Source of the DNA: Candidatus Parcubacteria bacterium
GTDB taxonomy: Bacteria; Patescibacteriota; Patescibacteriia; CAIXNZ01
DNA length: 64,000 nucleotides
Assembly (NCBI GenBank): GCA_026395685.1
Contig: JAPLYG010000001.1
Location: forward strand, 7,862-71,861
Reading direction: 5' to 3'
Positions 12,254-31,882 of the stretch are shown here, piece after piece. The translations under genes and the position numbers were made by a program. Within the stretch, counting starts at the first letter, position 1; each line of letters starts with the position of its first letter. The notes beneath the pieces were generated by a model that was not told the DNA's origin, did no database searches, and was given only the letters and a program-made list of their open reading frames with translations.

Positions 12254-12518
12254 TTTAACCTCCTTTATAATTTAGAATCTTACAATAAATCTCTTGCCCC
12301 CGATATGGAGATATCTTAGTATGAATTAGATTATTTATCAACCCTAAAGCCTGGTAAAGTTGTCCTATCTGCAGTTATGAGTTTCGCAATTTATACGGGC
12401 AATAAAGGGTTAATAAATGCTTGAATTTTATTAGGAAAAACGGCTTTTTTTCGTTTGACTCAGCGCAATTTTAGGCGTAAAATAAGAATAAATTAGCTTA
12501 ATTTTAAACTTCTCAAAT

Positions 12519-15422
12519 ATGGACAAAAAGCACCAAATCTTAAGAACGCCACAAATAGACAGTGATATAACAGATTCTGCTAAAAACAAGCTGAAGAAAG
12601 GGCTTGTTAGTTTGGTTCAGAAATTCAAGGAAGAAGACGGCTGGTCAAAGTCTGAAGAACATGTTCAGACCAGCTTTACGATTAAGTTACTGGAATTGCT
12701 GGGCTGGGATAGTTCAAGCTGGAATATCAACCAAGGACAGGATGTTAAGACTGGCAAAAAGCCCGATATAGTTTTAAAATCAAGCACATCCAAACTTTTA
12801 GTTATTGAGTCTAAGGATGCCCACAAAAAAGACATGCTTGACGGAGCATATCAGACCAAAACTTTTGTAGAGCAGTTATTAAAATATTGTTCTGGTGAGG
12901 GTGTGGCCTGGGGCGTACTGACTAATTTCGTGGAATGGCGACTGTACAGCTTTTATCAGGGGCGATTATATAAAAACAAAAAGTATGCCTTTTATGATTT
13001 GCTTTGGCCGAACGCCAACAAAGAAGATTATATTGATTTGCTTTCAGAAGATGGTTTAAACTTCTTACTCAAGCTCTCTAAAAGTTTCTTACTGCAAACT
13101 CAGGGCAGAATTGATCAGGATACTATTTATTATCCAGTTCAGCAGGATTTGGGCGTGGAAAAAATAAAGAAAGAATTTTTTGAAAAGATTAAAGTTTGGC
13201 GGTCATCCTTGCGTAAATATTTATTAAAGAATTATCCTCGCATTGAGGCTGATGATATTGATTTATTAGCACAGAAAATTTTAGACCGCTTAATCTTCAT
13301 GGACATCTGCCATGACAAGCATGTAATTGGCGAAGACATTATTGGTCAGGTTAAGGAATCAAAGTTGCCCAAGTATCAGGAATTGAAACTCAAGTTTAAA
13401 CAGATGGATGATAAGTTTAATACCGAGCTTTTCACATTTAAAGATTACAGCCAAGTCAATGAAGAAGATATTAAGATCAATGACGAAGTTATCCTACCAA
13501 TAATCACAGACTTGATAGAAATTGATTTTTCTAAATTAAGCGTTCATATTATCGGCGAAGTTTACGAGAATTATTTGGGCGAATTGGCCAAGTCCAGAAC
13601 TACTGATTCCGCCTCCGCTAAAGCTTCGGCGGACAGGGAAAAGAAAATCAGCGATAAGCAGAAACAAAAACGAAAATCCCAGGGTATTTACTATACTCCC
13701 GATTACATTGTTGACTACATTGTGAAAAATACAATCGGTGAGATATTGAAACAGGCAAAAACTGTTGAAGAAATAGAAAAAATAAGAGTCATAGATCCTG
13801 CCTGTGGATCAGGTTCTTTCCTTATCAGAGCATTTGATGAGTTTTTAAATGCATATATGCGGGTTCACAGAGAAGGCGGTCTGTTTGCTTTTGAATTAAA
13901 AAAGAAAATCTTGCAGAAGAATCTGTTTGGGGTTGATTTGGATGCCAAAGCCGTGGAAATTACAAAGTTGAATCTGCTGATTAAGGCTTTGGATGGCACC
14001 AAACCTGAAGATCTTAAGGGTAAACACCTTTTGCCTAATTTAAACTTGAACATTCGCTGTGGTAATTCATTGATTGGCGGTGAAAAATTACAGGATAAAG
14101 AGCAAAGCTTAAATCTTTTTGATAATTATAAAACTGAAGTTAATAAATTAGCTGACTTAAAGATTAGTTTTTACAAAGAATCAGATGATCAGAAGAAAAA
14201 GGACTTGCTGACAGAAATTGGCACATTGGAAATGGTGATTAATAAAAATCTTAACGGTGGGTTGAGCAAATACTTCTCCAACTTATCAAAAGTTGATCCC
14301 TTTAATTATTTCGTCGCATTTTGTTAAATATTTAATGATGGTGGGTTTGACGCAATAATCGGTAATCCGCCATATGGAGCTGAACTGAATGATAATGAAA
14401 AGGAATTTTATGCTAATAATTTTGGGGTCGGTTCAACTGATACTGCAATCCTGTTTATCAAGCGTTCATTTGATATTTTAAAGGATGAAAGTAAATTCGG
14501 ATTTATTGTCCCTAAAGCTTTTTGTTTTGCCTCTAATTACGAAAAAATCAGGGATTATGTTTGGAATAATCTGGAACAGATTGTGGACTGCAATAAAGTA
14601 TGGAAAGAAGTCAAACTCGAACAGCTTATATTTATAATCAACAAAGAAAAGAAATCTAAAAAATACTTATCCGCTAATTTTAAGAATAAGCAATTAAACA
14701 TCCTCGGCGATATTGATAAATCCGATGCAAAAGAATTTGGTTTCTTTTTAAATAGTGTTTCACCCGACGAAGTTGAAATCGCTAAAAAGATAAAATCAAA
14801 TTCACTTATGCTTAATGATATTGCCACTAATCAGAGGGGTGCAATTTTACAAAAACATATTTCAGACAAGGGCGAACTTGAGGTTATTGGCGGAGCGCAA
14901 GTACAGAGATTTGGAATTGATGGGATTAAGGGTAAAATTGACAAGAGTAAAATAGACAATGATCAAGCTTATTTAAAAGATAATTCTGTCTTAGTCCAGA
15001 ATATTGTCGCTCATATAGAAAATCCTGTTGACCATATTTTAATTATTGCAGGAATACCTGAAAAAGCAGACTATATTTTAGTGGATACCGTAAATCAAAT
15101 AACTTTACAAAAAGAGTTCTCGCCTTATTTTATTTGGTGTCTTCTAAATTCTAAGATAATTAACTGGTATGCTTATAGGTTCATTTTTGGTAAAGCTATT
15201 AGAACTATGCATTTTGATAATTCAGTGACTGCACGATTGCCTATTCCTAAGGCCACGAAGCAGGAGAAAAATTTATTAATTCAAAAGGCAAAGGAATTCT
15301 TGAAATTGGTAAAACAGAACCCAAGTGAGGATAAAATAAATGCGGTTAATTACGAAATTGACAAGGTGGTTTATAATTTGTTCGGATTGACTGATAATGA
15401 AATTAATTTATTATTTAAATAA
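12519..15422 (+). pseudogene. Type IIG restriction-modification enzyme (MmeI/Eco57I-like: PD-ExK nuclease, gamma-class N6-adenine MTase, TRD) interrupted by one in-frame TAA at 14325-14327
   Basis: N-terminal 'PDIVLK...VIESK' nuclease core. MTase motif I 'IDPACGSGSFL' lies upstream of the stop, and motif IV 'GNPPYG' (14358-14378) lies downstream of it in the same frame. The reading frame continues to 15422. The ORF track splits this into 12519-14327 and 14583-15422. Confidence 0.6.
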
Positions 15423-15437
15423 TCTAACTATAAAAAT

Positions 15438-16472
15438 ATGGATGACCGTAAAATACAAGAGATAAGAGAAGGATTACAAAGTTCTCATGTGAATTTTTTA
15501 TTTGGAGCGGGCTTGTCAACACCATATTTGCCATTGCTTGGCGATATTGAGATAAGATTATCAAGAGAAAGGAAATCCGCTGAAAGAATAAAGATAAAGA
15601 AGGAATACTTTGAAAAAGTCATGATCCCCAATTTAGAAATCATAAATAATGATATTACTAGTTCAAAACAGAATGATTTTAATATTACACAAAAAGCATA
15701 TAAAGATTTTTTTGAGCTTATTGGTCACATTTTACTTCACAGAAAAAATACTATTTTAAGTAAACAAGTAAATATCTTTACAACTAATATTGACATTCTA
15801 ATGGAAGTAGCATTAGAGGAACTTAACATGGAATACAATGATGGATTCTCTGGTAGACTAAATTCAGTTTTTAGTTTAAGTAATTTCAAGCGGTCTATTT
15901 TAAAACGAAGCTTGCACTATGAAAATGTATCGGAGGTGCCTATTTTCAATCTGGTAAAAATACACGGTTCCCTTACTTGGAAGAAAATTGAAGACAAGAT
16001 ATTTTTCTCTAAATTAACCCATTTTGATAAATCATTACTAAAAAAGTCTGGGAAAAAATTTGATGACAATTACAAAAAATTAGCAATAGTGAATCCTGAA
16101 AAGAAAAAACTTGAAGAAACCGTAATGGATCTGACTTATTATGAATTACTCAGAATGTATTCTAGTGAATTAGAGAAAGAAAATGTCATTTTATTTATTA
16201 TGGGTTTTTCAATGGAAGATGAACATATAAGAGAAATAACTATTAGGGGTGCTAATTCAAATCCCACATTAAAAATCTATCTTATTAGTCACGAAAAAGA
16301 TACTAATTTAGATCTGGCAAGAAAAATGGAAATCGGAAAATTGAGATATTCAAATATTGAAATAGTAGAACCTGAAGATGGAGAACAAAATAGCAAATTA
16401 AGTCTAACTGTAATTACAAAATTGATTTTCGAAAAAGTGGTTAAGAACATTGCTCATGACAACAAAGATTAA
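15438..16472 (+). CDS. SIR2-family NADase (defence-associated sirtuin) of a SIR2-HerA pair
   Basis: SIR2 signature motifs 'FLFGAGLST', 'FTTNIDILME' (TTNxD) and 'KIHGSL'. Confidence 0.8.
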   Translation: MDDRKIQEIREGLQSSHVNFLFGAGLSTPYLPLLGDIEIRLSRERKSAERIKIKKEYFEKVMIPNLEIINNDITSSKQNDFNITQKAYKDFFELIGHILLHRKNTILSKQVNIFTTNIDILMEVALEELNMEYNDGFSGRLNSVFSLSNFKRSILKRSLHYENVSEVPIFNLVKIHGSLTWKKIEDKIFFSKLTHFDKSLLKKSGKKFDDNYKKLAIVNPEKKKLEETVMDLTYYELLRMYSSELEKENVILFIMGFSMEDEHIREITIRGANSNPTLKIYLISHEKDTNLDLARKMEIGKLRYSNIEIVEPEDGEQNSKLSLTVITKLIFEKVVKNIAHDNKD

Positions 16473-18366
16473 TCCAATTGAAAAAGAATTAGTTAGGGAG
16501 TCAATTTTTATAATTGGACATGTTTTGTCTGTAGAGGGTAGGATTGTCAAAATTAAATTAAATAAAGATAAGAATCATTCCCACATACTGTACGAGGGTA
16601 AAACGGTAAAAAATGTTTCAGTTGGTGGTTATGTAAAAATCATTAAAGGTTTTGTTAGTATTATTGGTAAGGTTGAGGGAGAATATATTACTGAAGAAAA
16701 ATACATCAATAGAGAATATAACAAAGAAGAGATAAAAATAAATAGAATTTTGCAGGTTTCTCTTTTTGGTCATTTTGAAGGTGGTTGTTTTAGACAGGGT
16801 ATTAAAGAAATGCCACTTATTGATAACGAGTGTTATCTTTTAAATAGAGAAGAGTTCAACACCCTTCATCAGTTCTATAAAAATAGTCAGAAGTCGATAG
16901 TCATAGGAAGTTTAACAGAAGAACCTTCGCAAAAGATACGACTAGGTGTCAATAATTTATTTGCTAGTCACATAGGAATATTTGGCAATACAGGAAGTGG
17001 TAAATCAAACACATTAGCCAAAATTTACACTGAATTATTTATAGAATTTGATGATAACGAGGAGTTTAAAGCTAAATCTGATTTCGTGATTATTGATTTT
17101 AATGGTGAATATATAGGTAGGGATATAATTACCAATAATAAAACTGTTTACGAATTATCTACAGGTAAAGAAGGAAGTAAGAAAAAATATCCAATAACTA
17201 GAGAAAATCTTAATAAGGTTGAAGTGTTATCCGTTTTATTAGAAGCTACGGAAAAGACTCAAAAGCCTTTTCTGGATAGGGTTGTAAGAAATGATTACTT
17301 AAATGACGTCGATAAATTTAATAGTAGGGTAATTTCTGATATAGAAGATATTTGCAGAAACATTATTGACAAAAAAGACAAAAATATGCGAGAAGGAGTT
17401 GTGGTTGAGTTATTTGGACGAATTTCAGATTTAGTTTTAGATGAAAGTAAAGATGGGATAACAAATTTAAAAAAAGAAATTGAAAATAATTTGCATTTCT
17501 TTTCAGGTACTGGTGGTACCCCCGAATATTACTGGGCAAATTCCTCAGATTCAAATAATTTTAATAACAAGACACCAATTTATGATAATAAAATAAAAAC
17601 CGTAGTGGATGGTTTAAAATTTAAAAGTGATGAGTTTAGTAAATTAAAACTAAAGATTATACTCAATTATTTTCACGAGACTATTAAGGGATACTCAAAT
17701 CAGGAACACATTGCCCCTTTAATCGGCAGAACTTTTAGAAAATTCGATATGCTTGAAAAGTTAATTGAGATTAATGAAGAAGTAGACTCAAATAACTTAT
17801 CAATTGTTTGTTTGAGAAATGTAAATATTGAAATGAAAAAGATAATTCCTCTTATTGTTTCTAAGCAACTATACGAGAGGAAAAAAGAGATAAATGGGAA
17901 AAAATCATTGCATATCATTGTTGATGAAGCACATAATATTCTTTCAACGATGTCGCAAAGGGAAAGTGAAACATGGAAAGATTATCGCCTAGAAACATTT
18001 GAAGAAATAATTAAAGAAGGTAGAAAATTTGGTGTCTTTTTGACCATCGCAAGCCAAAGGCCATATGATATTTCCTCTACAATCATTTCTCAATTGCACA
18101 ATTATTTCATCCATAGACTAATTAATGATAATGATATTAATGCGGTTGAGAAGGCGGTTTCTTATCTTGATAAGCTATCATTTCAAACTATCCCAATATT
18201 ATCAGTTGGAAGTTGTTTTGTTGCTGGATTAGCTTCGGATATACCTATTAAAGTCGATATTGATCCACTGGAAAAAAACAAAAGACCAAAGAGCGAGACT
18301 GTTGATTTAGAAAATGCGTGGACAAAAATTTTGTCGCCAAATAATCGAAAATCAAGCAAACAATAG
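16450..18366 (+). CDS. HerA/DUF87-family ATPase partner of SIR2
   Basis: Walker A 'GNTGSGKSNTL'. Walker B 'LHIIVDEAHNI'. Size (638 aa) and 23-nt overlap with the SIR2 gene, typical of an operon. Confidence 0.8.
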   Translation: MLMTTKINPIEKELVRESIFIIGHVLSVEGRIVKIKLNKDKNHSHILYEGKTVKNVSVGGYVKIIKGFVSIIGKVEGEYITEEKYINREYNKEEIKINRILQVSLFGHFEGGCFRQGIKEMPLIDNECYLLNREEFNTLHQFYKNSQKSIVIGSLTEEPSQKIRLGVNNLFASHIGIFGNTGSGKSNTLAKIYTELFIEFDDNEEFKAKSDFVIIDFNGEYIGRDIITNNKTVYELSTGKEGSKKKYPITRENLNKVEVLSVLLEATEKTQKPFLDRVVRNDYLNDVDKFNSRVISDIEDICRNIIDKKDKNMREGVVVELFGRISDLVLDESKDGITNLKKEIENNLHFFSGTGGTPEYYWANSSDSNNFNNKTPIYDNKIKTVVDGLKFKSDEFSKLKLKIILNYFHETIKGYSNQEHIAPLIGRTFRKFDMLEKLIEINEEVDSNNLSIVCLRNVNIEMKKIIPLIVSKQLYERKKEINGKKSLHIIVDEAHNILSTMSQRESETWKDYRLETFEEIIKEGRKFGVFLTIASQRPYDISSTIISQLHNYFIHRLINDNDINAVEKAVSYLDKLSFQTIPILSVGSCFVAGLASDIPIKVDIDPLEKNKRPKSETVDLENAWTKILSPNNRKSSKQ

Positions 18367-18436: not shown

Positions 18437-19906
18437 ATGCCACACCAAATTATAAAATTTTCAGAATATTTTAATCTAAATAAGAGTCAGTACGAACTTG
18501 ATTTTGTTGATGTTCCTATAAATAATGGCGATGTGCCTTTATTTATTGATCCCTATGCAATATCTAAAAGAACTGATTATTGGTCAATTGAGTGTCATAA
18601 TGCAATCGTAGATTTCTTTCAATATTTAATTGATCAAATTAGCCAAGGCAACACTCAACAAGCCAGGAATGCTTTATCTGGTTTAAGGGAGCCAAATCAA
18701 ACCAGATTAGGCATGTCTACTGGAAATAAGCCAAGAGGACGAGGTATCGGGAATGAGCAATCTGAATTTTTATTTTTAGCATTATCAGAAAGCACCGCTG
18801 TAAGAACTGGATTCATAAAAGATCTAGAAGAATGTGAACTTTTAATTGAGGGTATTGGCCGTGATAAAATTTCCGATATAGCCACAAATATAATCAGACA
18901 TAAATTAATTGAGTATACTCAAATACAGTGTGAACTTTGGAATATCACATTAAACTCGGTTCCAAGTGGGATGACATGGAATCAAGATTTAAATGAATGG
19001 GAGAATGAATATGTTAATCTGCCAGTATGTAATTCTAATAGTGTTATTTTAATCCCAAAGGCAATAGCTAGATTTGATATTGAATTTGATTATCAAGAAT
19101 ATTATCAACACTTCGTATTGAATTTTCTTCAATCCGAAGAATTATCTGCAAATTCTTCACTGGTTAGAACTTTAAAAAATGGGACTAAAAAACCACCCTA
19201 CAAAAAAGCTTTAAAGGAAAAATATCCTTTAACCAAGAAATATCTTTATGAATTTTCTAAAGAGCACCCAGATATATTAAGTAATTATAAAACTAGCAAA
19301 GGCTATAATTTAAGAGAATTAAGCGTAGAGGATATTTTATTTTTCGCTTATAAACAAGAGACAAATAGAAGCATTGATTATAATACTTTAAAGAATAAGT
19401 TAAATACCATTCAAACTGGAGACTCAGCCGCTAATCAATATCATGATTATATTATAGGAGCGATGACGGCAATATTTTATCCTTACCTTATCAACCCTAA
19501 AAAAGAGCAGGAAATTCATGATGGAAGGAAAAGAATTGATATAGTATTCCAAAATTCAGCACATGACGGTTTCTTTTTTGAATTACCGAATACTAAATCG
19601 GTTCCGTCCGGGTATATATTTGTCGAGTGTAAGAATTACGCAAGTGATCCCGCCAACCCTGCATTGGATCAATTGTCTGGAAGATTTTCAACTAATAGAG
19701 GTAAATTCGGATTTTTAGTGTGTAGGTCATTTAGCAATAAAGATTTATTTATACAAAGATGCAAAGACACAGCACAAGATGATAGAGGTTTTATTGTCGC
19801 ACTAGACGACGATGACATTGAAAAGTTATTAGAATTTAGAAGTAATAATAATTATGCTGGCATTAATACTTTTTTAGATGATAGATTTAAAGAATTGGTA
19901 ATGTAA
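18437..19906 (+). CDS. Hypothetical protein with C-terminal PD-(D/E)xK nuclease-like core
   Basis: 'RIDIVFQN...GYIFVECKNY' (D...E-x-K) near the C-terminus. The N-terminal 330 aa are unrecognised. Confidence 0.4.
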   Translation: MPHQIIKFSEYFNLNKSQYELDFVDVPINNGDVPLFIDPYAISKRTDYWSIECHNAIVDFFQYLIDQISQGNTQQARNALSGLREPNQTRLGMSTGNKPRGRGIGNEQSEFLFLALSESTAVRTGFIKDLEECELLIEGIGRDKISDIATNIIRHKLIEYTQIQCELWNITLNSVPSGMTWNQDLNEWENEYVNLPVCNSNSVILIPKAIARFDIEFDYQEYYQHFVLNFLQSEELSANSSLVRTLKNGTKKPPYKKALKEKYPLTKKYLYEFSKEHPDILSNYKTSKGYNLRELSVEDILFFAYKQETNRSIDYNTLKNKLNTIQTGDSAANQYHDYIIGAMTAIFYPYLINPKKEQEIHDGRKRIDIVFQNSAHDGFFFELPNTKSVPSGYIFVECKNYASDPANPALDQLSGRFSTNRGKFGFLVCRSFSNKDLFIQRCKDTAQDDRGFIVALDDDDIEKLLEFRSNNNYAGINTFLDDRFKELVM

Positions 19907-20342: not shown

Positions 20343-20540
20343 ATGCTCACCTCAAAAATCAAAGTCCTAAACGAAGAAAAAATTGCCAATATAATTTTGG
20401 ATTTAGAACGCGGGAAATTAAAAATTCCAAGATTTCAGCGTCAATTTGTTTGGGAGCGGTCAAAAATTATTAAACTTTTAGATAGCATCTATCAGGAGTT
20501 TCCGATCGGCAGTTTTTTCGGGGGAATGACTTGTGGATAA
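20343..20540 (+). pseudogene. Truncated DUF262 (GmrSD/ParB-like type IV restriction N-domain) fragment
   Basis: 'IPRFQRQFVWERSKIIKLLDSIYQEFPIG' is the DUF262 signature. The ORF stops after 65 aa, whereas intact family members are several hundred aa. Confidence 0.5.
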
Positions 20541-23961: not shown

Positions 23962-25029
23962 TTAACGCAGTTTCTTCAAAACATCCATAACCCCCGACTT
24001 CTCTAATTCAAGTAGAGAATTGTAAATAAAAGTTATTGCCTTTTTTTCTCCACCCTTAATGAATTCGGGGAATGCCATTTCTTTTAAATATGGCCAATGA
24101 ATATCGTTCGGTTGTTTTACGAAAAATGTCTTATCGATTTTCTGCGGTTTTATATTTTTAAACTTTTCAGCGAATTCTTTTTTCCAGATAGCGATACATT
24201 GATAGTAATAAAGTCCATTCGTATAATTTTTTTCATCTATATATAAAGCGAAGCCTAATTCAATCCGTTTAAACCAACTCCATTCGTTTCTGCCAAAAAA
24301 TAAATAGAACAACATGTTGTCACTGCTGAATTTTGGGGTATTGCGTGTCACTTGCAATTTATGTTTCTTTAAAAATCCGATAATCCTTTTGTCTTTGTAA
24401 ATCTGTTTTAAAAAGGCAATTAGTTTTTTATTAAAGCCCAGGAAATTTGTTTTGGAAAGGGCGATGTCTTTCTTATCAAAACCCTGAAATGGTTGCATAT
24501 CTAATTCTTTCATGAATTTTAAAAAATTAGTAATAAAATATTTATTGGTTTTATTAATCTTATTATTATGAAAATAATCGTCCAAAAGATTATAGACCTC
24601 AAACCATTCAAATTGTCCTAGGAATTTGTCGATATTACTTTTAACTTGTATACTGCCCTGATCTTTCGTTATAAAACAAACAAAACCTTTATTCATTCGT
24701 AGATATTTTTCAACTTGTCCAAAATCATCCTCTGTAGCGTCGTCATAATAACGGTTTTCATGAGCATTGACTTTAATTTCAATAAATATTTTCTTATAGT
24801 TTTTATCAGTAACCTGCAAATCAATTATTGAATTGCCATATCTGACTTGGCTTTCTAAGGTAAAAGGAGCTTTAAATACCTGATCGTTACTGATATATTT
24901 TACAAATTTATTTAGAAGATCTGCATCAAGAGAAAGTATGATTTTTAAGCTTTCAGTAAAAAAATTCTCCGCAGGAGTCATTCCCGGCTGAGGCTTGTAT
25001 CTATATAAGGTAGAAAAAATATTTTCCAT
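23962..25029 (-). CDS. PD-(D/E)xK nuclease-superfamily protein (hypothetical), first gene of a two-gene minus-strand operon
   Basis: 'GNSIIDLQVTDKNYKKIFIEIKVNAHE' core. The likely start is Met 'MENIFSTLYR' at 25029 rather than the extended ORF start at 25080. Confidence 0.35.
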   Translation of the reverse strand: MENIFSTLYRYKPQPGMTPAENFFTESLKIILSLDADLLNKFVKYISNDQVFKAPFTLESQVRYGNSIIDLQVTDKNYKKIFIEIKVNAHENRYYDDATEDDFGQVEKYLRMNKGFVCFITKDQGSIQVKSNIDKFLGQFEWFEVYNLLDDYFHNNKINKTNKYFITNFLKFMKELDMQPFQGFDKKDIALSKTNFLGFNKKLIAFLKQIYKDKRIIGFLKKHKLQVTRNTPKFSSDNMLFYLFFGRNEWSWFKRIELGFALYIDEKNYTNGLYYYQCIAIWKKEFAEKFKNIKPQKIDKTFFVKQPNDIHWPYLKEMAFPEFIKGGEKKAITFIYNSLLELEKSGVMDVLKKLR

Positions 25030-25046
25030 ATAATAGGTGAAATTTT

Positions 25047-25083
25047 TGGGAAAACAAAAAGGGTCCCACGTCGGTGGCACCCT
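25047..25083 (-). terminator. Hairpin plus U-run immediately upstream of the 23962-25029 start (leader attenuator or terminator of an upstream sRNA)
   Basis: Minus strand reads 'GGGTGCCACCGACGTGGGACCC' followed by 'TTTTTGTTTT', about 20 nt before the ATG. Confidence 0.4.
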
Positions 25084-25782
25084 TTCGGGCGCCCAACAAC
25101 CTTTCGGATGTTGACCATTCGCATAGTGCCGATCATGAGACCGTCTTTATGCGAATGGATTTGAGCGACCATGCCCCAAGGAGGAATCCTTGGGGGTTAG
25201 GTCCAAATTGTATGAAATTATTCATATCATACCTTAAAAAATGGTTGCTGTAAAGCGGGGTTACCGACAGTTTATCTACTCGGGTTTCAGCAAAAAGTTA
25301 TCCACAATTTAATTTTTGACTTACAAAATCACAAAATTATAACATATCTGATTTTGCTTAATCTTAGATGAATTTTCATGGTTGACTTACGAGATGTAAT
25401 TATCTGAAAAACACGATTATAAACTTGACGGAACTGCTAGTTAAGCTATAATTAATGTAACAGTTCTTGTGACTAGCTCTTCGAAAACTTAATATCAGCA
25501 ATAAGATATAAGATTTTATAACTAATTAACATTTAAGTTCGGTTTTAAAAAGGAAAAAATCTATAACCCTAATAAAAGGTTTTAGGTTTGAAGTTAAAAT
25601 ATAAGATTTAAAATTAAAATTCTAAAAAAGTTCCAGTCATTTAATATCCCTATAAGATATTAAATTTAATTTTAAACAATCCAGCAATGGGTATATTTTA
25701 ACAACAGACTTAAGGCCTTTTTTTGTTAAAAGCTATCCCCATTGAGGATAGCTTTTTAATTATTTATAATTAATTTTATTTT

Positions 25783-27054
25783 ATGCAAAACTCAGCCAAA
25801 TTAAAAATAGAGTCAATTCCTATTGCTGAACTTAAGGTGGATATTTACAATCCCAGAATCCACACGCCAGAAGCAATAAGCCAGCTAAAAGAGTCAATTA
25901 AAAAGTTCGGCGAAATTTCGCCAATAGTGGCTAATAGTGCTCCCAACAGGAAAAATATTGTAATTTCGGGGCACATGAGAATAAAAGCCTGCTTAGAGTT
26001 AGGGCTTAAGGAAATACCGACAATTTTTGTGAACATCCCCGACATTAATCGAGAAAAAGAATTAAATCTTCGCATGAACCGTACTGGCTCATGGGATTAT
26101 GAACTTCTTAAGAGTTTTGACTTAAATGTCCTTTTGGATGTTGGGTTCGATAACAGTGATTTATCTTTGATATGGGATCAGAACTTGGAAACTGAAGATG
26201 ACAGTTTTGATGTAGAAACGGAATTAAAAGAGATTAAGAAAACAGACATAAAAGTTGGAGATTTATTCCAGATTGGATCTCATAGGATTTTGTGCGGTAA
26301 TTCATTGGATCTTTCAGCAGTAAAAGGGCTTATGGGCGGTAAAAAGACAAGGATGATATATACCGATCCGATCTACAACATCTCTCTGGATTATAACTTG
26401 GGGATTTCTCAGAAACAAAATTATGGCGGACAAACTAATGACAAGAAAACCGATGCTGAATACAAAGAATTTCTGAAAGGAGCTATTTCTAATGGATTGG
26501 CGGTTTCTGAAAAGGATTTACATGTGTTTGTTTACTGTGACCAAAGATATATTGGTTTAATTCAAGATCTTTATCATGAGCTTGGGATAAAGAACCAAAG
26601 GGTCTGCCTTTGGATTAAGAATGGATTTAATGTAACTCCACAAATAGGTTTTAATAAATCATATGAGCCTTGTGTTTATGGAACAATGGGAACGCCTTTT
26701 CTTTCAGACATAAAGAACTTAAGTGAAATTTTAAACAAGGAAATCGGCACAGGAAACAGAACAATTGATGACATCATGGACTTGTTGGATATTTGGCTGG
26801 TTAAACGTTTGCCAGGCCAAGATTACACACACGCCACAGAGAAGCCAACAACTCTCCATGAAAAAGCAATAAAAAGATGTACATCTCCTGGCGATATTAT
26901 TTTAGATCTATTCGCTGGTTCGGGATCAGCCATTATTAGTAGTGAACAACTTAAGCGAGTATGTTACGCCGTCGAGATTGAACCTATCTTCGTACAACTA
27001 ATTATTAACAGGTTTGAAAAATATGCAAACATCAAAGCAAAAAAGCTCAATTAA
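25783..27054 (+). CDS. ParB-N domain fused to beta-class N4/N6 DNA methyltransferase
   Basis: ParB-like 'ISGHMRIKAC'. MTase motif IV 'MIYTDPIYN' precedes motif I 'ILDLFAGSGSAII...YAVEIEP'. Confidence 0.75.
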   Translation: MQNSAKLKIESIPIAELKVDIYNPRIHTPEAISQLKESIKKFGEISPIVANSAPNRKNIVISGHMRIKACLELGLKEIPTIFVNIPDINREKELNLRMNRTGSWDYELLKSFDLNVLLDVGFDNSDLSLIWDQNLETEDDSFDVETELKEIKKTDIKVGDLFQIGSHRILCGNSLDLSAVKGLMGGKKTRMIYTDPIYNISLDYNLGISQKQNYGGQTNDKKTDAEYKEFLKGAISNGLAVSEKDLHVFVYCDQRYIGLIQDLYHELGIKNQRVCLWIKNGFNVTPQIGFNKSYEPCVYGTMGTPFLSDIKNLSEILNKEIGTGNRTIDDIMDLLDIWLVKRLPGQDYTHATEKPTTLHEKAIKRCTSPGDIILDLFAGSGSAIISSEQLKRVCYAVEIEPIFVQLIINRFEKYANIKAKKLN

Positions 27055-27793
27055 ATATGGTGACATTTTTACGCTAGGCGAACATCTTTTATGTTGCGGA
27101 AATTGTACAGATACGGAATTAGTAAAGAGGTTATTGGGCAATAATAAAATTAAATTAATTTTGGCGGATGTGCCGTATGGCGTGAATTTTACCCAATCAA
27201 AAGAAAGTTTATTGAAAAAAGAGACAAAGCATAAAGATATTGTCGGTGATGAAGATCAAAGCGACGAAAAATACAGTTCCTTCACCCGAGAATGGCTAGA
27301 AGCGATTAAACCTTATTTGGAAAGGAAAAATGCCTTCTATATTTTTAATTCAGATAAGATGATTTTTTCACTCAGACAAGGGATTGAGAATGCTGGTTAC
27401 AATTTTGGGCAGCTTCTAATTTGGGTGAAGAGTCAGGCTGTAATCGGACGAAAGGATTATCTTCCCATGCATGAGCTTATTGCATACGGATGGTGTGGTA
27501 CTCATGAATTTATGAAAAGTAAGGCGAAAAGCGTGCTCTTTTATCCTAAACCTCAAAACAACAATCTTCATCCGACAATGAAACCAATCAGTTTGTTAAG
27601 AGATTTGATTTTGAATAGCACAAGGATTGGTGACATTGTTTATGATGGATTCGTTGGGTCTGGGTCAACTATTTTAAGTTGTGAGCAAACTAAGAGAAAA
27701 TGTTTTGCTTTTGAGATCGAACCCGACTATTGCCGAGTTATTCTTGAGAGATTCGAGAAATTAACAGGCATTAAACCTAAAAAACTAACTTAA
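27014..27793 (+). CDS. Beta-class DNA methyltransferase (phage-type orphan MTase)
   Basis: 'LILADVPYG' (DPPY variant) and 'VYDGFVGSGSTIL...FAFEIEP'. Confidence 0.75.
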   Translation: MKNMQTSKQKSSIKYGDIFTLGEHLLCCGNCTDTELVKRLLGNNKIKLILADVPYGVNFTQSKESLLKKETKHKDIVGDEDQSDEKYSSFTREWLEAIKPYLERKNAFYIFNSDKMIFSLRQGIENAGYNFGQLLIWVKSQAVIGRKDYLPMHELIAYGWCGTHEFMKSKAKSVLFYPKPQNNNLHPTMKPISLLRDLILNSTRIGDIVYDGFVGSGSTILSCEQTKRKCFAFEIEPDYCRVILERFEKLTGIKPKKLT

Positions 27794-27797
27794 TACT

Positions 27798-28205
27798 ATG
27801 AAAGATCTAAAAACTAAAGAGTTATTTCTAGACCAGCTTAAGAAGACCCCAATAATTCAGGTCTGTTGTGAAAAAACTGGCATCAGCAGAGCAACACTTT
27901 ATCGCTGGAAAGCAAAGGATAAGGGTTTTGCTGAAAAATTAGATAAAGCCTTAGGCGAAGGCACTGAATTGGTAAATGATTGCGCTGAAAGCATGTTAAT
28001 TTCAGCTATTAAGGATAAAAACATGACGGCCATCACCTACTGGTTAAAAAATAAGTGTCCTGGATATATGCCTAAGCTGGAATTGTCGGGCAAAGTAAAA
28101 GTGGAAAACGAGGCTCTGTCCGAAGAACAGAAGTCTCTAATCAAGAAAGCCCTTGAGCTTTCTGGCTTAAATATTAATGATCCTAAATATGATAAGTACA
28201 AATAA
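27798..28205 (+). CDS. Phage terminase small subunit-like HTH protein
   Basis: 'KTGISRATLYRWKAKDKGFAEK'. Sits directly upstream of and overlapping the terminase large subunit. Confidence 0.5.
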   Translation: MKDLKTKELFLDQLKKTPIIQVCCEKTGISRATLYRWKAKDKGFAEKLDKALGEGTELVNDCAESMLISAIKDKNMTAITYWLKNKCPGYMPKLELSGKVKVENEALSEEQKSLIKKALELSGLNINDPKYDKYK

Positions 28206-29760
28206 TTTTGACCCAGAGCTAATAGCCAAAATAATGGTTGATCAAAAAGTCAGACAGGAAATCGCCTACAATTCTCATGTATTGTTCTTCCATATTTATT
28301 TTAGCCACTATGTCCAATATCAGACTGCGGATTTCCAGCGTAATCTATTTGATTTGACGCATGATGCTGAAAATCCGTTATTGTGCGTGCTCGCTTTTAG
28401 GGGTTCAGGCAAAAGTTCTATTATGTCAGTATCATTTCCGATTTGGGCAGTACTCGGCAAATTACAGAAAAAACACGTGGTGTTGATTGCCCAAACAATG
28501 GATCAAGCCAAACAAATGCTATTTAACATAAAAACCGAGCTTGAAAATAACCAGCTGCTTAAATCGGATCTGGGACCATTTAAGGAAGAAGAAGACTGGC
28601 GTTCATATACATTGGTATTATCCAAATATGGTGCGAGAATTTCGGCGCTGTCAACTGAGCAAAGCAGTAGAGGCATCAGACACAGAGAAAACCGTCCTGA
28701 TTTGATTATTTTAGATGATGTGGAAAATTCTTATTCCGTTAAGACCAAAGAGTCGAGAGACAAATTATATAATTGGTTTAATTCTGAAATTGTGCCTTTA
28801 GGCGATAAGCAAACTCAAACTGTGATAATTGGGAATCTGCTTCATGAAGATTCTTTGATGATGAGAATAAAGGAAAGAATTACCAGCGACAATCTTACCG
28901 GCAAATTTGTAGAAATACCGATTGTTTATAAAGATGGAAAGATTGCCTGGCCGGGAAAGTATCCGACGATGGCTGATATTGAAAATCTAAAAAAAAGAAT
29001 GCCCGATCCCGCCATCTTTGCTTTGGAGTATGAATTAAGAAAAATTGATGATGGAGATAGAATAATTCATCAGGAATGGATTAAAACTTATGCTAATCTT
29101 CCAGATCCCAATGATAAAACACATAGATACTTATTCACCGTCTCAGGAATTGATCCTGCGGCTTCGACTGATAGCGGAGCATGCTTTACGGCAATAATTT
29201 CTGCTCATATCTACCAAATTCGCGAAAGGCTTAAAATTTTTATTTTGCCTAATCCATTAAACAAAAGGCTGACATTCCCTCAGTTGATAGAGCAGATAAA
29301 ATTATTGGATATACGATTAAAAAGGGAGAAACATAAATTATTTATCGAAGATGTTGGCTATCAAAAAGTATTAATTCAGGAATTGTCTTCTCAGTATTTT
29401 GCCGTAGAAGGAATAAAAGTTGGCTCTCTTAATAAGTATGAAAGATTAAAGTTGACCAGCAATGCGGTTTTTGACGGGACTGTTTTGTTTCCTGAAAAAG
29501 GCTGTGAAGCGTTAATAAATCAGATTGTTAATTTCGGCGTAGAAAGATATAAGGATCTGGCAGATGCCTTTTCGCTATTAATTAACCAGCTGATATCCGC
29601 TAATTATAAGCAGAACGAACTTTATGTGACAACAGGAAATTTTACTCATATAAATATCCCCGGTCAAGACCATTTCACTGAACAGTCAAAGGCGGCAAAG
29701 ATAGCTGAATATAAAAGGTTACAGGATAAAATTAACAGAGACGGGTTTCTGTATTTTTAG
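28177..29760 (+). CDS. Phage terminase large subunit (TerL)
   Basis: P-loop 'AFRGSGKSS', 'LIILDDVEN', and a C-terminal RNaseH-like nuclease region with conserved acidic residues. Confidence 0.7.
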   Translation: MILNMISTNNFDPELIAKIMVDQKVRQEIAYNSHVLFFHIYFSHYVQYQTADFQRNLFDLTHDAENPLLCVLAFRGSGKSSIMSVSFPIWAVLGKLQKKHVVLIAQTMDQAKQMLFNIKTELENNQLLKSDLGPFKEEEDWRSYTLVLSKYGARISALSTEQSSRGIRHRENRPDLIILDDVENSYSVKTKESRDKLYNWFNSEIVPLGDKQTQTVIIGNLLHEDSLMMRIKERITSDNLTGKFVEIPIVYKDGKIAWPGKYPTMADIENLKKRMPDPAIFALEYELRKIDDGDRIIHQEWIKTYANLPDPNDKTHRYLFTVSGIDPAASTDSGACFTAIISAHIYQIRERLKIFILPNPLNKRLTFPQLIEQIKLLDIRLKREKHKLFIEDVGYQKVLIQELSSQYFAVEGIKVGSLNKYERLKLTSNAVFDGTVLFPEKGCEALINQIVNFGVERYKDLADAFSLLINQLISANYKQNELYVTTGNFTHINIPGQDHFTEQSKAAKIAEYKRLQDKINRDGFLYF

Positions 29761-29840: not shown

Positions 29841-31181
29841 ATGGATCAACCAACGACGCAAATTAAGGGCAATTTGGGGGCTTTAAGCAACAAACAGGCG
29901 GATTTGAAGCCTATACTCAAGTATTGCCTTTACTCAAGAAAATCAACGGAACAAGAGGAACGGCAGGCTCTTTCCATTGATTCGCAAATTAAAGAAATGT
30001 TAAAAGTTGCAGAAAGAGATAATCTGGAAGTAACCGAGATTAGGCGTGAAAGCCATTCTGCCAAAGCTTCGGGAGCCAGGCCGATTTTCAAACAGCTGTT
30101 AGTTGATATTGAGAAAGGACTATTCAATGGAATTTTAACCTGGGCTCCCGACAGGTTAAGTAGAAACGCTGGGGATCTGGGCGAATTGGTCGATCTGATG
30201 GATCATCAAAAACTGATTGAAATCAGAACATTCAGCCAGATATTCACTAATTCACCTAATGAAAAATTTCTACTGATGATCTTGGGCAGTCAGGCCAAAC
30301 TGGAAAACGATAATAGGGGCGTTAATGTCAAAAGAGGATTAAGAGCCAGAGTTGAAATGGGTTTGTGGCCCGGCCAGGCGCCGACTGGTTATCTGACTAA
30401 TAAAAATGTTGATAAGAAAGGTCAAGTTTTAGTAGATCCAGACCGAGCTCCAGTGCTCCGCAAAATGTTTGAAAAAGTAGCTTATGAAAATGTTAGCGGT
30501 CGTAAACTATATGCCTGGCTAAAATTTGATATAGACTTCAAAACTAAATACGGCAAACATTTAACGCTAAGCAATGTATACAGAATTTTAAATAGCCCGT
30601 TTTATTACGGCAGATTCCAATATCCTAAAGAAAGCGGAAACTGGTATCAGGGCAAGCATGAACCATTAATATCGCAAGAACTCTATGAACTGGTACAGCA
30701 AGCGATTACCAGAGGCCAGCATATTAAATCAGAAGCAAAGGAATTCATGTTTGTTAAGCTGATTAAGTGCGGAGCCTGCGGATCAGGAATAACCGCAGAT
30801 GAAAAATTCAAAAAGCTATTGGACGGATCAGTAAGCAGATATGTTTATTACGGATGCACTAAGAGCAAGGATATCCATTGCAAGACAGGTTATATAAGAG
30901 AGGACGAATTATTAAAGCAGATGCTGGAATTGATTGATCGGGTCGATCTTAATCAGCTGGGCATAAAAGAAAAAATAGAAAATGAAATAGACAGGTACTA
31001 TAAATTCAAAACCAGCGTGCTTGGCGAGTCAGACACAAAGAAAAATAAGCAAAAAGATCTGGATATTAAAAATTATGCCAAGTACATCTTAAAGGAAGGC
31101 AGTGTTTATGAAAAAAGAGATTTGTTATCTAACTTAAGAAGCAAGCTTGTACTTAAGGATAAAAAGTTGATGCTGGAATAG
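29841..31181 (+). CDS. Large serine recombinase/integrase
   Basis: Resolvase catalytic region 'YCLYSRKSTEQEERQALSIDSQ'. Recombinase domain, then zinc ribbon 'CGACGSG...YYGC' and a coiled-coil tail. Confidence 0.8.
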   Translation: MDQPTTQIKGNLGALSNKQADLKPILKYCLYSRKSTEQEERQALSIDSQIKEMLKVAERDNLEVTEIRRESHSAKASGARPIFKQLLVDIEKGLFNGILTWAPDRLSRNAGDLGELVDLMDHQKLIEIRTFSQIFTNSPNEKFLLMILGSQAKLENDNRGVNVKRGLRARVEMGLWPGQAPTGYLTNKNVDKKGQVLVDPDRAPVLRKMFEKVAYENVSGRKLYAWLKFDIDFKTKYGKHLTLSNVYRILNSPFYYGRFQYPKESGNWYQGKHEPLISQELYELVQQAITRGQHIKSEAKEFMFVKLIKCGACGSGITADEKFKKLLDGSVSRYVYYGCTKSKDIHCKTGYIREDELLKQMLELIDRVDLNQLGIKEKIENEIDRYYKFKTSVLGESDTKKNKQKDLDIKNYAKYILKEGSVYEKRDLLSNLRSKLVLKDKKLMLE

Positions 31182-31277
31182 GTAAAATAGAAAAACGCCC
31201 TGCTATTGCGGGCGTTCTTCTGTTTCTCTGAATTTGTACGTCCTTGAGGCACTCGGGTCTCTCGAACGCTTTCTTCT

Positions 31278-31352
31278 TGGTACCGCCTAGGGGAATCGAA
31301 CCCCTGTTACCAGGATGAAAACCTGGTGTCCTAACCACTAGACGAAGGCGGC
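31278..31352 (-). tRNA. tRNA-Glu(UUC), CCA encoded
   Basis: Minus strand reads 'GCCGCCTTCGTCTAGTGGTTAGGACACCAGGTTTTCATCCTGGTAACAGGGGTTCGATTCCCCTAGGCGGTACCA'. Cloverleaf with anticodon loop 'TTTTCAT'. Confidence 0.85.
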
Positions 31353-31356
31353 GTAA

Positions 31357-31611
31357 TTATTTAAGATTAAAACCTAATTTGTTAAGTAACTCTTTACGAA
31401 TTTGATAATTTTTCTTTAATATAAGTTCTATCTTTCTCGCTTCAGTTTTAGTATTATATTCTTCTATATATATTAATTCAAAGGGTATTCTACATTTAGT
31501 TGATTTTGTTTTGCCATTATTATGTTCTTTTAGCCTATTTGTTGGGTTATCACTTATTCCAATATAATAACCTTTATCATTTAAGCTTTGTAAAATATAT
31601 AAATAGTACAT
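31357..31611 (-). CDS. GIY-YIG nuclease-family small protein (YhbQ/UPF0213-like)
   Basis: 'YYLYILQSLNDKGYYIGISDNPTNRLKEHN' (GIY-YIG motif, Arg and Glu) and '...TKTEARKIELILKK'. The ORF-track N-terminus 'MVRTPGF...' is a read-through of the tRNA fragment, so the start is set at the internal Met. Confidence 0.7.
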   Translation of the reverse strand: MYYLYILQSLNDKGYYIGISDNPTNRLKEHNNGKTKSTKCRIPFELIYIEEYNTKTEARKIELILKKNYQIRKELLNKLGFNLK

Positions 31612-31620
31612 ATTAATCAA

Positions 31621-31694
31621 GGCAGGATGTCCGCCGGAGGCGGATCCGCCTTTGGCGGAAAAACCTGGTGTCCTAACCACTAGACGAAGGCGGC
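31621..31694 (-). repeat. Duplicated 5' half of tRNA-Glu (acceptor, D-arm and anticodon 5' stem) fused to GGATCCGCC palindromic hairpins
   Basis: Minus strand reads 'GCCGCCTTCGTCTAGTGGTTAGGACACCAGGTTTT' then 'TCCGCCAAAGGCGGATCCGCCTCCGGCGGA'. Identical to tRNA-Glu positions 1-35, diverging inside the anticodon loop. Confidence 0.6.
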
Positions 31695-31882
31695 AAGTTT
31701 AGTTCAAAGTTTATAGTGCAAAGTTTAAAGTTGCGTAATAATCATTTTAAACTAAAAATCCCCTAAGGGATTATGGTTATATTATAGGGTAAAAATCAAT
31801 TATCGTCAAGGCTTGACCTTTGTCAGGATATTTGATTAAGTAACTGTAGGACTAACTGTAATAATAACCAAGGAGGATTAAG

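What the first reader, a model, noticed from the sequence alone, without database searches (positions are those of the whole stretch)
12300..31700. About 19-kb mobile defence island bounded by a serine integrase and tRNA-Glu
Between the two-component system and tRNA-Glu the gene content switches to R-M, SIR2-HerA, several orphan nuclease genes, a DUF262 remnant, two orphan DNA methyltransferases, TerS/TerL and a large serine recombinase that ends 100 bp from the tRNA-Glu 3' end. This is the architecture of an integrative element carrying a defence island. The uncharacterised gene pairs inside it are the best candidates for new immune modules. A left-end att repeat was not found by eye.
Basis: partly seen in the sequence, partly recalled or inferred. 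Interest (0 to 1): 0.7.

Follow-up and report, generated by a model that had tools for sequence, protein, structure and literature searches.

The report
Terminase-and-recombinase defence island in a CPR bacterium
The 19-kb stretch beside tRNA-Glu is a real anti-phage gene island built on a five-gene backbone (two DNA methylases, small and large terminase, serine recombinase, plus an orphan RNA motif called LOOT) that recurs beside tRNA genes in many candidate-phyla-radiation bacteria with different defence cargo each time, but its left end could not be found.

Summary
The recombinase gene stops 96 nt from the tRNA-Glu 3' end.

Corrections to the gene list:
- The R-M gene is one type IIG ORF broken by an in-frame TAA.
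- A TcmP/radical-SAM pair and a LOOT RNA were missed.

Main new result: 25.1-31.2 kb (LOOT RNA, ParB-methylase, methylase, TerS, TerL, large serine recombinase) is a conserved backbone, not a random prophage scrap.
- It recurs in the same order in dozens of metagenomic loci. All those that carry a source name are Patescibacteria (CPR).
- A minus-strand tRNA usually lies downstream of the recombinase, with a shared GGGTC trailer motif.
- Some copies show direct repeats of the tRNA 3' end.
- No copy examined has capsid or portal genes.
- Cargo differs between copies and is mostly defence: type I, III and IIG R-M, CBASS, retron-like RT, TOTE, Bub, DUF8370/GmrSD.
- Two genomes with 91%-identical backbones carry unrelated cargo starting just downstream of LOOT.

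Relatives L001 and L003 have NAD-salvage genes at the same tRNA-Glu flank.

Unresolved: the window has no left att copy, and two cargo genes are decayed. Mobility of the 19 kb as one unit, and helper-phage packaging, are inferences. Verdict: partly supported; new variant of a known kind.

The parts
12445..12495 (+). Promoter-like stretch (TTGACT-N17-TAAAAT) upstream of the type IIG gene
   Evidence: Sequence read. It is 88% identical to the stretch upstream of the IIG-like gene in L192, although the two proteins are only 29% identical.
12519..15422 (+). Type IIG restriction-modification gene (REase + methylase + TRD) interrupted by one in-frame TAA at 14325-14327; probably inactive
   Evidence: Pfam and PADLOC hits. 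Continuous 967-codon frame with a single stop just before NPPY.
15438..16472 (+). SIR2-like NADase component of a SIR2-HerA defence pair
   Evidence: PADLOC PDLC04080 2.1e-60; PF13289; GC3 0.24.
16450..18366 (+). HerA-type ATPase/helicase partner of SIR2
   Evidence: PADLOC PDLC04097 5.9e-177; PF01935.
18437..19906 (+). DUF8370 (PADLOC PDC-M36A, phrog_27295); C-terminal D...ECK motif, so probably a PD-(D/E)xK nuclease with a FokI/BspD6I-like layout
   Evidence: PF28123:DUF8370 is named. Alignment A6 conserved motifs. AlphaFold model pLDDT 85.5. Best PDB fold matches are Nt.BspD6I, FokI and MspJI, but only at E >= 0.02. 95% identical to the copy in L197.
19913..20329 (+). 138-aa ORF, absent from the corresponding intergenic spacer of L197; possible small PD-(D/E)xK protein
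   Evidence: L197 has a short spacer between DUF8370 and GmrSD where the window has about 410 nt. A homologue lies between the recombinase and tRNA-Ser in L061. The nuclease reading rests on the motif only.
20343..20519 (+). 5' remnant (59 codons) of a GmrSD/DUF262 gene
   Evidence: tblastn of the 669-aa L197 GmrSD_N protein: residues 1-59, 100% identity.
20614..21564 (+). TcmP (three-Cys-motif partner protein); PADLOC PDC-M30A/M41A
   Evidence: TIGR04474 135.8 bits, cut-off 53; PADLOC.
21600..22439 (+). Radical SAM protein with weak DUF5131 (Gp37/Gp68) similarity; presumed TcmP partner
   Evidence: PF04055 4e-15 and PF07505 7e-5; phrog_13321.
22486..23946 (-). DUF2779 / Cas4-RecB-like nuclease
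   Evidence: PF11074 1.5e-41 and PF01930. Homologues beside the same backbone in L068, L070, L079 and L088.
23962..25032 (-). 356-aa protein of unknown function, first gene downstream of LOOT
   Evidence: No significant Pfam, PADLOC, NCBIfam or PDB hit. The D...EIK motif was seen by eye only.
25076..25203 (-). LOOT RNA (Rfam RF03000), 5' leader of the first cargo gene; lies at the edge of the conserved backbone
   Evidence: 80.9 bits against a gathering score of 46.4. The same motif is found in at least 15 further family loci. The homology breaks between window, L192 and L197 lie just 3' of it.
25783..27054 (+). ParB-N-domain fused N6/N4 DNA methylase (backbone gene 1)
   Evidence: phrog_498; conserved position in the family.
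27014..27793 (+). Second N6/N4 DNA methylase (backbone gene 2, absent from some family members)
27798..28205 (+). TerS-like HTH protein (backbone gene 3)
   Evidence: PF13022; terminase small subunit PHROGs.
28177..29760 (+). Terminase large subunit with intact Walker A (GSGKS) and Walker B (backbone gene 4)
   Evidence: phrog_38 3.9e-66; sequence. Nearest isolated-phage TerLs are Mu-like at 29% identity or less.
29841..31181 (+). Large serine recombinase (backbone gene 5) with YSRKS and DRLSR motifs intact
   Evidence: 97-98% aa identity to L192 and L197 over a 1.4-kb block of 92-93% nt identity limited to 29759-31178.
31196..31214 (+). Terminator-like hairpin after the recombinase gene
   Evidence: Read from the sequence.
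31248..31277 (.). 30-nt tRNA trailer GAGGCACTCGGGTCTCTCGAACGCTTTCTTCT; probable att half-site. The element/host junction lies between 31182 and 31277.
   Evidence: Identical in L192 and 88% identical in L005. A [CG]GGTC motif is present in 12 of 17 trailers of recombinase-associated tRNAs and 0 of 17 control trailers.
31278..31352 (-). tRNA-Glu(ttc), with CCA encoded, unlike the recombinase-free relatives

Best explanation
Window 12.5-31.25 kb is an integrated copy, probably no longer excisable as it stands, of a widespread family of small integrative elements. All family members that carry a source name are Patescibacteria (CPR).

The family backbone is: LOOT RNA leader, ParB-methylase, an optional second methylase, TerS, TerL and a large serine recombinase.

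Shown:
- The backbone recurs in fixed order.
- It lies upstream of the 3' end of a tRNA gene, which carries a shared trailer motif.
- In some copies it is bracketed by repeats of the tRNA 3' end.
- It carries variable, mostly anti-phage cargo. Cargo sits mainly just downstream of LOOT, but also between TerL and the recombinase, or between the recombinase and the tRNA.

Inferred:
- The serine recombinase integrates a circular form at a site made of the tRNA 3' end plus about 30 nt of trailer.
- The methylases protect the element's DNA.
- TerS and TerL let the capsid-less element be packaged into a helper phage's heads, as phage satellites are.
- LOOT controls expression of whatever cargo gene lies behind it.

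In this copy the cargo is a nonsense-mutated type IIG R-M gene, SIR2-HerA, DUF8370 with a truncated GmrSD partner, a TcmP/radical-SAM pair, a DUF2779 nuclease and an unknown 356-aa protein.
For: Backbone recurrence:
- 37 IMG/VR loci hold a recombinase 45-63% identical. Most keep methylase-TerS-TerL-recombinase in the same order.
- At least 8000 database homologues at E <= 1e-40. The named ones are all CPR.
- Four further genome and metagenome contexts also have the module: L192, L193, L195/L196 and L197.

tRNA link:
- The first tRNA downstream of the recombinase is on the minus strand in all 17 loci that have one: Glu, Asp, Gln, Ser, Trp, Asn.
- The trailer motif is in 12 of 17 of these and in 0 of 17 control tRNAs.
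- Direct repeats of trailer plus tRNA 3' end bracket L082, 12.2 kb. A 55-nt exact tRNA-Gln repeat brackets L195, 15.4 kb.
- Two elements with a 97-98% identical recombinase (window and L192) both lie upstream of a tRNA-Glu with the identical 30-nt trailer.

Island status:
- Synteny with relatives ends at the tRNA-Glu 3' side.
- L001 and L003 have NAD-salvage genes there.

Cargo:
- Type I and III R-M, RT, TIR-like (assigned by eye); CBASS and TOTE; Bub-like E2/E1; AlwI R-M, helicase, DUF8370, GmrSD.
- L192 and L197 share a 91% nt backbone and right flank, but have unrelated cargo starting at the LOOT 3' edge.

Other:
- No capsid or portal family in any annotated context.
- The recombinase and TerL motifs are intact.
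Against: - No left att copy exists in the window, direct or inverted.
- No genome shares the left flank, so the 12.3-kb border is only the change in gene content.
- The IIG gene has a stop codon and GmrSD is truncated, which suggests decay.
- In the family, defence genes also lie beyond the recombinase, and some modules are inverted relative to it. The recombinase is therefore not always terminal.
- In L192, 8.3 kb including an enolase gene separates the recombinase from tRNA-Glu.
- No circular form was seen. The L071 ends are 93%-identical copies, not an assembly overlap.
- There is no replication, regulator or excisionase gene, and no known helper phage, so the packaging role is pure inference.
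- The IMG/VR loci are biased towards terminase-containing contigs.
Confidence: 0.58

Rival explanations
1. Two adjacent units. A small backbone element (about 22.5 or 25.0 to 31.25 kb, like the 6-kb minimal copy L054) integrated at tRNA-Glu next to an older chromosomal defence island (12.5-22.4 kb) that is not part of it. Defence genes simply accumulate at this tRNA hot spot.
For: - Minimal family members are only 6-12 kb (L054, L082).
- The SIR2-HerA-DUF8370 block has a distinctly lower GC3 (0.23-0.27) than the backbone (0.33-0.40).
- No left att site is present.
- Defence genes flank family recombinases on both sides.
- The tRNA-Glu 3' flank differs in every relative examined.
Against: - IIG, DUF8370/GmrSD, DUF2779 and the 138-aa ORF all have homologues in the corresponding cargo position of other family members.
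- Cargo exchange in L192/L197 begins at LOOT and extends more than 10 kb leftwards.
- A 19.7-kb family member is inferred in L067/L065.
Confidence: 0.27
2. An ordinary decayed prophage. The methylases, TerS, TerL and integrase are what is left after deletion of the structural genes. The segment is immobile and has no function as a unit.
For: - The ParB-methylase/TerS/TerL order is typical of the start of a phage late operon; 592 phage-contig relatives of the methylase were found.
- The nearest isolated-phage TerLs are Mu-like.
- Two cargo genes are decayed.
Against: - The same compact five-gene block, with intact ORFs and TerL-recombinase adjacency, recurs at 45-63% recombinase identity in dozens of loci. 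None of them has portal or capsid genes. Independent deletions would not give this.
- The catalytic motifs are intact.
Confidence: 0.08
3. The backbone is itself an immune or conflict system: methylases mark self DNA, and the TerL ATPase-nuclease with an HTH partner attacks unmarked DNA. The recombinase serves only to move or invert it.
For: - The backbone is always embedded among defence genes.
- The module is inverted relative to the recombinase in L069/L070 and L195/L196.
- There are no capsid genes.
Against: - None of the backbone proteins was run against PADLOC, so there is no direct test either way.
- TerL and TerS match bona fide packaging families.
- ParB-methylase next to terminase is common in real phages.
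Confidence: 0.07

Closest known systems
Phage satellites that carry defence hot spots (P4-like, PICI) and the Vibrio PLE, which uses a large serine recombinase
   Same: Small (6-20 kb) integrated element. It has an integrase, no capsid or tail genes, its own packaging gene(s), and variable anti-phage cargo. PLE also integrates with a large serine recombinase (PMC9122126 and PMC9638900, from their abstracts).
   Different: This element encodes both TerS and TerL. It has no replication, primase or regulator module detectable here. It sits beside tRNA genes and occurs in CPR bacteria. No helper phage and no induction have been shown. None of the defining satellite marker genes was found.
Classical tRNA-linked genomic islands and integrative elements
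   Same: The island sits at the 3' end of a tRNA. It is absent from related genomes. Repeats of the tRNA 3' end bracket some family members (L082, L195).
   Different: The recombinase is a large serine recombinase, not a tyrosine integrase. The window copy lacks the distal repeat.
SCC elements (Ccr large serine recombinases, cargo islands at rlmH) - from my own knowledge
   Same: Serine-recombinase-driven island inserted at the 3' end of a conserved gene. It carries exchangeable cargo including R-M systems, and tandem arrays occur.
   Different: SCC elements have no terminase or methylase module. The target is a protein-coding gene, and the hosts are staphylococci.
Temperate-phage serine integrases (SPbeta SprA, TP901-1 Int)
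   Same: Same domain architecture. The best solved-structure matches are 9dxh at 6.7e-13 and 3bvp at 7.7e-10.
   Different: Only 25-29% identity to any isolated-phage integrase. Those phages carry complete structural modules and usually target protein-coding genes.
Integron platform (analogy only)
   Same: A fixed leader (LOOT plus a divergent promoter region) behind which unrelated cargo genes are found in different copies.
   Different: There are no attC-like repeats and no tyrosine integrase. A link between the recombinase and cargo capture has not been tested.

Membership tests
Large serine recombinase (integrase/transposase class) | N-terminal resolvase catalytic domain with a serine nucleophile | tested here: met
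   PF00239 2.5e-22; YSRKS and DRLSR motifs.
Large serine recombinase (integrase/transposase class) | Recombinase domain plus zinc-ribbon domain C-terminal to the catalytic domain | tested here: met
   PF07508 1.2e-13 and PF13408 9.4e-8; aligns over residues 22-424 with SPbeta SprA.
Large serine recombinase (integrase/transposase class) | Catalyses attP x attB recombination | not testable with these tools
   Needs a recombination assay.
tRNA-targeting integrative island | Integrase gene next to the 3' end of a tRNA gene | tested here: met
   96-nt gap. Same geometry in L054, L074 and L087.
tRNA-targeting integrative island | Repeat of the tRNA 3' end (att) at the distal border | tested here: not met
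   None in window 1-31.1 kb. Met in relatives L082 and L195.
tRNA-targeting integrative island | Presence/absence polymorphism among related genomes | tested here: inconclusive
   L001 and L003 lack it and have NAD-salvage genes at the site. However, they are only 82% identical in TsaD and do not share the left flank. No same-species genome was available.
Prophage | Capsid, portal and tail genes | tested here: not met
   No such Pfam or PHROG hit among ORFs of 100 aa or more in 12.5-31.2 kb, nor in family contexts.
Prophage | Terminase small and large subunits | tested here: met
Phage satellite (PICI / P4 / PLE / cfPICI) | Family marker genes: replication initiator or primase, AlpA/Stl-type regulators, capsid-remodelling genes | tested here: not met
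   No such domains in Pfam, PHROG or NCBIfam scans.
Phage satellite (PICI / P4 / PLE / cfPICI) | Helper-dependent induction and packaging | not testable with these tools
   Needs virus-particle sequencing or culture.
SIR2-HerA defence system | Adjacent SIR2 and HerA genes matching the defence-specific profiles | tested here: met
   PDLC04080 2e-60 and PDLC04097 6e-177. The genes overlap by 23 nt.
Type IIG restriction-modification enzyme | Single intact polypeptide with nuclease, methylase and specificity domains | tested here: not met
   All domains are present but the frame is broken by TAA at 14325-14327.
GmrSD (DUF262 + DUF1524) | Full-length two-domain protein | tested here: not met
   Only codons 1-59 remain.
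LOOT RNA (Rfam RF03000) | Covariance-model score above the gathering threshold over the full model | tested here: met
   80.9 bits against 46.4, model positions 1-121.
TcmP / three-Cys-motif pair (PADLOC PDC-M30/M41) | TcmP next to a DUF5131 (Gp37/Gp68) protein | tested here: inconclusive
   TcmP is above its cut-off. The neighbour is a radical SAM protein with only a sub-threshold DUF5131 match (22.9 bits against 28.9) and no PADLOC hit.

The most novel reading that the evidence does not exclude
CPR bacteria host a very large, undescribed family of capsid-less elements that encode their own terminase, integrate by a serine recombinase next to tRNA genes, and act as the main shuttle for their defence systems. 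They would spread as phage satellites. Cargo would be captured and expressed behind the orphan LOOT RNA, so that LOOT is a cargo-control leader at a cassette-exchange boundary.
Probability: 0.3. Interest if true: 0.75.

Novelty: new variant of a known kind. Interest (0 to 1): 0.58.

Why it matters
CPR (Patescibacteria) cells have tiny genomes, and from my own knowledge they are thought to carry few mobile elements and few defence systems. How they acquire immunity is poorly known.

- If the backbone is a satellite-like vehicle, it gives a concrete, testable route for defence-gene traffic in this large uncultured group.
- It gives a genomic context to the orphan LOOT RNA motif.
- It would add a lineage of serine integrases apparently directed at tRNA 3' ends.
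- For annotation, the backbone is a practical marker for finding defence cargo in CPR genomes.

The island in this window is itself an ordinary and partly decayed example. The interest lies in the family.

Tried and rejected
1. Exact-protein look-ups of the recombinase, TsaD, response regulator and histidine kinase found no contig. The source contig could therefore not be extended.
2. A metagenome scan with the histidine kinase found nothing above 37% identity. The big protein search found only a 100%-identical NCBI Parcubacteria MAG protein on a 77-kb contig, presumably the window's own, and then 57%. The left junction is therefore untestable by comparison.
3. Searches for a left att site gave nothing above shuffled controls. 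I tried exact and mismatched copies of the tRNA 3' part, ungapped sliding of the trailer plus tRNA end, and local alignment in direct and inverted orientation against intergenic regions.
4. A single-protein viral scan with the ParB-methylase returned only one contig. The profile scan returned generic phage methylases without the recombinase. This shows the module's phage ancestry but did not help with borders.
5. Circular forms: there are no terminal overlaps in 19 whole contigs. The L071 ends are 93%-identical TerS copies, so it is a tandem arrangement, not a circle.
6. GC and GC3 do not give a clean border.
7. A DGQQR motif scan missed the DUF262 remnant. Only comparison with L197 revealed it.
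8. Literature: full-text searches found no description of LOOT biology or of this element family. Absence from that library is not proof of novelty.
9. The DUF8370 structure search gave only weak matches (E >= 0.02) to type IIS enzymes and other PD-(D/E)xK nucleases. This is a hint, not an assignment.

Full report
**What is in the window**

ARAGORN and Rfam place tRNA-Glu(ttc) at 31278-31352 on the minus strand.

- 12519-15422: a type IIG restriction-modification gene. It is one 967-codon frame broken by a single TAA at 14325-14327, immediately before the NPPY motif.
- 15438-18366: SIR2-HerA (PADLOC 2e-60 and 6e-177).
- 18437-19906: DUF8370, which is PADLOC PDC-M36A.
- 19913-20329: a 138-aa ORF.
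- 20614-21564: TcmP, above the NCBIfam cut-off.
- 21600-22439: a radical SAM protein.
- 22486-23946, minus strand: a DUF2779/RecB-like nuclease.
- 23962-25032, minus strand: an unknown 356-aa protein.
- 25783-31181: ParB-methylase, methylase, TerS-like protein, TerL and a 446-aa large serine recombinase.

The recombinase has intact YSRKS and DRLSR motifs, and TerL has an intact Walker A motif. The recombinase gene stops 96 nt before the tRNA 3' end.

The "DUF262 remnant" is real. Window 20343-20519 encodes the first 59 residues of a GmrSD protein that is intact (669 aa) next to a 95%-identical DUF8370 gene in locus L197.

It lies 44 nt upstream of the 356-aa gene.

**Organism and the right border**

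- The nearest TsaD genes (71-82% identical) are in Parcubacteria, Falkowbacteria and Uhrbacteria MAGs.
- The histidine kinase is 100% identical to a protein of an NCBI "Candidatus Parcubacteria" MAG on a 77-kb contig. I take this to be the source contig.
- Gene order from tRNA-Glu rightwards (TsaD, TsaE and on to about 43 kb) is shared with L001, L003, L005, L006 and L007. Nothing left of the tRNA is shared.
- L001 and L003 have NUDIX, NrtR, PnuC and NadR-like genes left of tRNA-Glu.
- L005 has housekeeping-type genes there.
- The window shares only the 30-34 nt trailer next to the tRNA with L005 and L192. The island's right junction therefore lies between 31182 and 31277.

**The backbone is a recurrent element**

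A viral-contig scan with the recombinase gave 37 loci at 45-63% identity. In most of them the block ParB-methylase, (methylase), TerS, TerL, recombinase is present in the same order. The compact form occurs in at least 11 loci. Others have 7-8 kb inserted between TerL and the recombinase.

The large protein database holds at least 8000 homologues at E <= 1e-40. All those that carry a source name are CPR lineages. Every further genome or metagenome context I looked up has the module: L192, L193, L195/L196 and L197.

No capsid, portal or tail family appears in any annotated context. The nearest TerL and integrase in isolated phages are 29% identical or less. A fixed five-gene block with intact ORFs at this divergence is not what independent prophage decay would give.

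**The link to tRNA genes**

In all 17 loci that have a tRNA downstream of the recombinase, the first one is on the minus strand. Its 3' end therefore faces the element.

- The gap is 95-150 nt in the window, L054, L074 and L087. It is 0.8-9.5 kb in the others.
- A [CG]GGTC-containing motif lies about 25 nt from the tRNA end in 12 of these 17 trailers and in 0 of 17 control tRNAs. The controls include the recombinase-free tRNA-Glu of L001, L003, L004, L007, L008 and L009.
- L082 is bracketed by imperfect repeats of trailer plus tRNA-Asn 3' end, giving a 12.2-kb element (score 29 against a shuffled maximum of 25).
- L195 is bracketed by a 55-nt exact repeat of the tRNA-Gln 3' part, giving 15.4 kb.
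- L054 and the tandem contig L067/L065 give weaker repeats, implying 6.2 and 19.7 kb.
- The window and L192 carry 97%-identical recombinases. Both lie upstream of a tRNA-Glu with the identical 30-nt trailer, at 66 nt and 8.3 kb respectively.

The recombinase is the only recombinase seen inside the delimited elements. By parsimony it is the integrase. This is an inference.

**Cargo**

- Cargo families in the loci, as I read them from the sequences, are type I R-M (HsdR/S/M), type III Res/Mod, a retron-like reverse transcriptase, a TIR-like protein, helicases, and IIG-like plus SNF2 pairs.
- Pfam adds CBASS (Cap15 plus a weak SMODS match) in L057 and TOTE in L077.
- It also adds E2/ThiF/BubE, patatin and an ABC transporter in L195/L196, and AlwI R-M, a UvrD-like helicase, DUF8370 and GmrSD in L197.
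- L192 and L197 are 91% identical in nucleotide sequence across the backbone and right flank. Their cargo is unrelated, and the difference begins at the 3' edge of LOOT.
- L192 and L193 have an IIG gene in that cargo position. L197 has DUF8370-GmrSD. L068, L070, L079 and L088 have DUF2779. L061 has the 138-aa ORF family.
- The window's 12.5-25 kb content is therefore typical cargo for this family.

**LOOT RNA**

LOOT is found in at least 15 further family loci, in most cases 10-70 nt upstream of a same-strand gene. The genes behind it are unrelated to one another. It is often 450-700 nt from the ParB-methylase and divergent from it.

**Mosaicism**

Nucleotide homology between the window and L192/L197 is limited to four kinds of segment:

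- the recombinase gene (29759-31178, 92-93%);
- DUF8370 with the GmrSD start (91-92%);
- LOOT (74%), the IIG promoter (88%) and the tRNA plus trailer (95%).

By contrast, TerL is 48-49% and ParB-methylase 31-34% identical at the protein level. Modules are evidently exchanged between elements.

**What remains open**

- The window has no second copy of the trailer or tRNA 3' end, and no inverted match to the recombinase-proximal end.
- No genome shares the left flank. The border at 12.3 kb is therefore defined only by gene content.
- Two cargo genes are decayed.
- No circular forms were seen.
- Packaging by a helper phage, methylase protection and LOOT regulation are all inferences.
- A composite is the main rival: a small element next to an older defence island.
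- DUF8370 modelled well (pLDDT 85.5). It gave only weak fold matches to FokI, Nt.BspD6I and other PD-(D/E)xK nucleases. These are consistent with its conserved D...ECK motif but not proof.

**Verdict**

The island is a partly decayed member of an apparently undescribed but very common CPR element family. It is a new variant of the "integrative element or satellite carrying defence cargo" theme.

Noticed in passing
window 31357-31694; L003 7545-8275: A small GIY-YIG gene sits between the intact tRNA-Glu and a second copy of tRNA positions 1-35. Its true start is probably the ATG near 31617, giving about 86 aa; its GC3 is 0.14. The second copy (31660-31694, an exact 35-nt repeat) has a 30-nt double GC hairpin (TCCGCC-NNN-GGCGGA, twice; 31630-31659) inserted inside the anticodon. 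L003 has the same layout, plus tandem copies of 3'-half-plus-hairpin on the other side of the intact tRNA. GIY-YIG genes also abut the tRNA-Gln of L195 and L196.
   Followed up: partly
window 59530-59715: tRNA-Arg(tct) is flanked in the same way. On the 5' side there is a fragment of tRNA nt 1-19 with a double hairpin inserted at 12/13. On the 3' side there is a fragment of nt 47-73 with a double hairpin at 53/54. All four CCGCCNNNGGCGG sites in the 64 kb lie at these two tRNAs (0.39 expected by chance). This may be a tiny palindromic element that targets tRNA genes, with compensating duplication.
   Followed up: partly
window 25076-25203; L055, L058, L059, L061, L062, L065, L068, L070, L071, L073, L080, L082, L192, L193: The orphan Rfam motif LOOT is tied to this element family. 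In most cases it lies just upstream of a same-strand gene, and the genes behind it are unrelated. It marks the point where cargo begins to differ between otherwise near-identical backbones.
   Followed up: yes
window 29759-31178 vs L192 9919-11329 and L197 18363-19782: The recombinase gene alone is 92-93% nt identical to two other elements, while the neighbouring TerL is 48-49% and ParB-methylase 31-34% identical at the protein level. This points to recent exchange of a recombinase-only segment whose ends coincide with the TerL stop and the last codons of the recombinase.
   Followed up: partly
window 14325-14327: A single in-frame TAA splits the type IIG R-M gene just before the catalytic NPPY motif. 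It is either a real inactivating mutation or a sequencing error.
   Followed up: partly
window 9872-11869: The PAS histidine kinase has no close homologue in 5.8 billion proteins other than one 100%-identical NCBI record, presumably its own (the next hit is 57% over 62% of its length). The region left of the island may therefore also be accessory DNA.
   Followed up: partly
window 41000-49000, 56400-58100, 62000-63200: Genes with GC and GC3 of 0.48-0.65 stand out against a background of 0.30-0.40, including a 1299-aa ORF at 43785-47684. I did not examine them.
   Followed up: no
L192 14964-15025: A fluoride riboswitch sits upstream of an MFS transporter, inside the 8.3 kb between the recombinase and tRNA-Glu. 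That stretch also holds ArsR/thioredoxin/ArsP-type genes and an enolase gene. It could be non-defence cargo or host DNA.
   Followed up: no
L067/L065 (one 28-kb contig), L083/L076 (one 32.5-kb contig), L071, L072: Two recombinase-bearing elements occur in tandem or head-to-head on single contigs, which suggests repeated insertion at the same site.
   Followed up: partly
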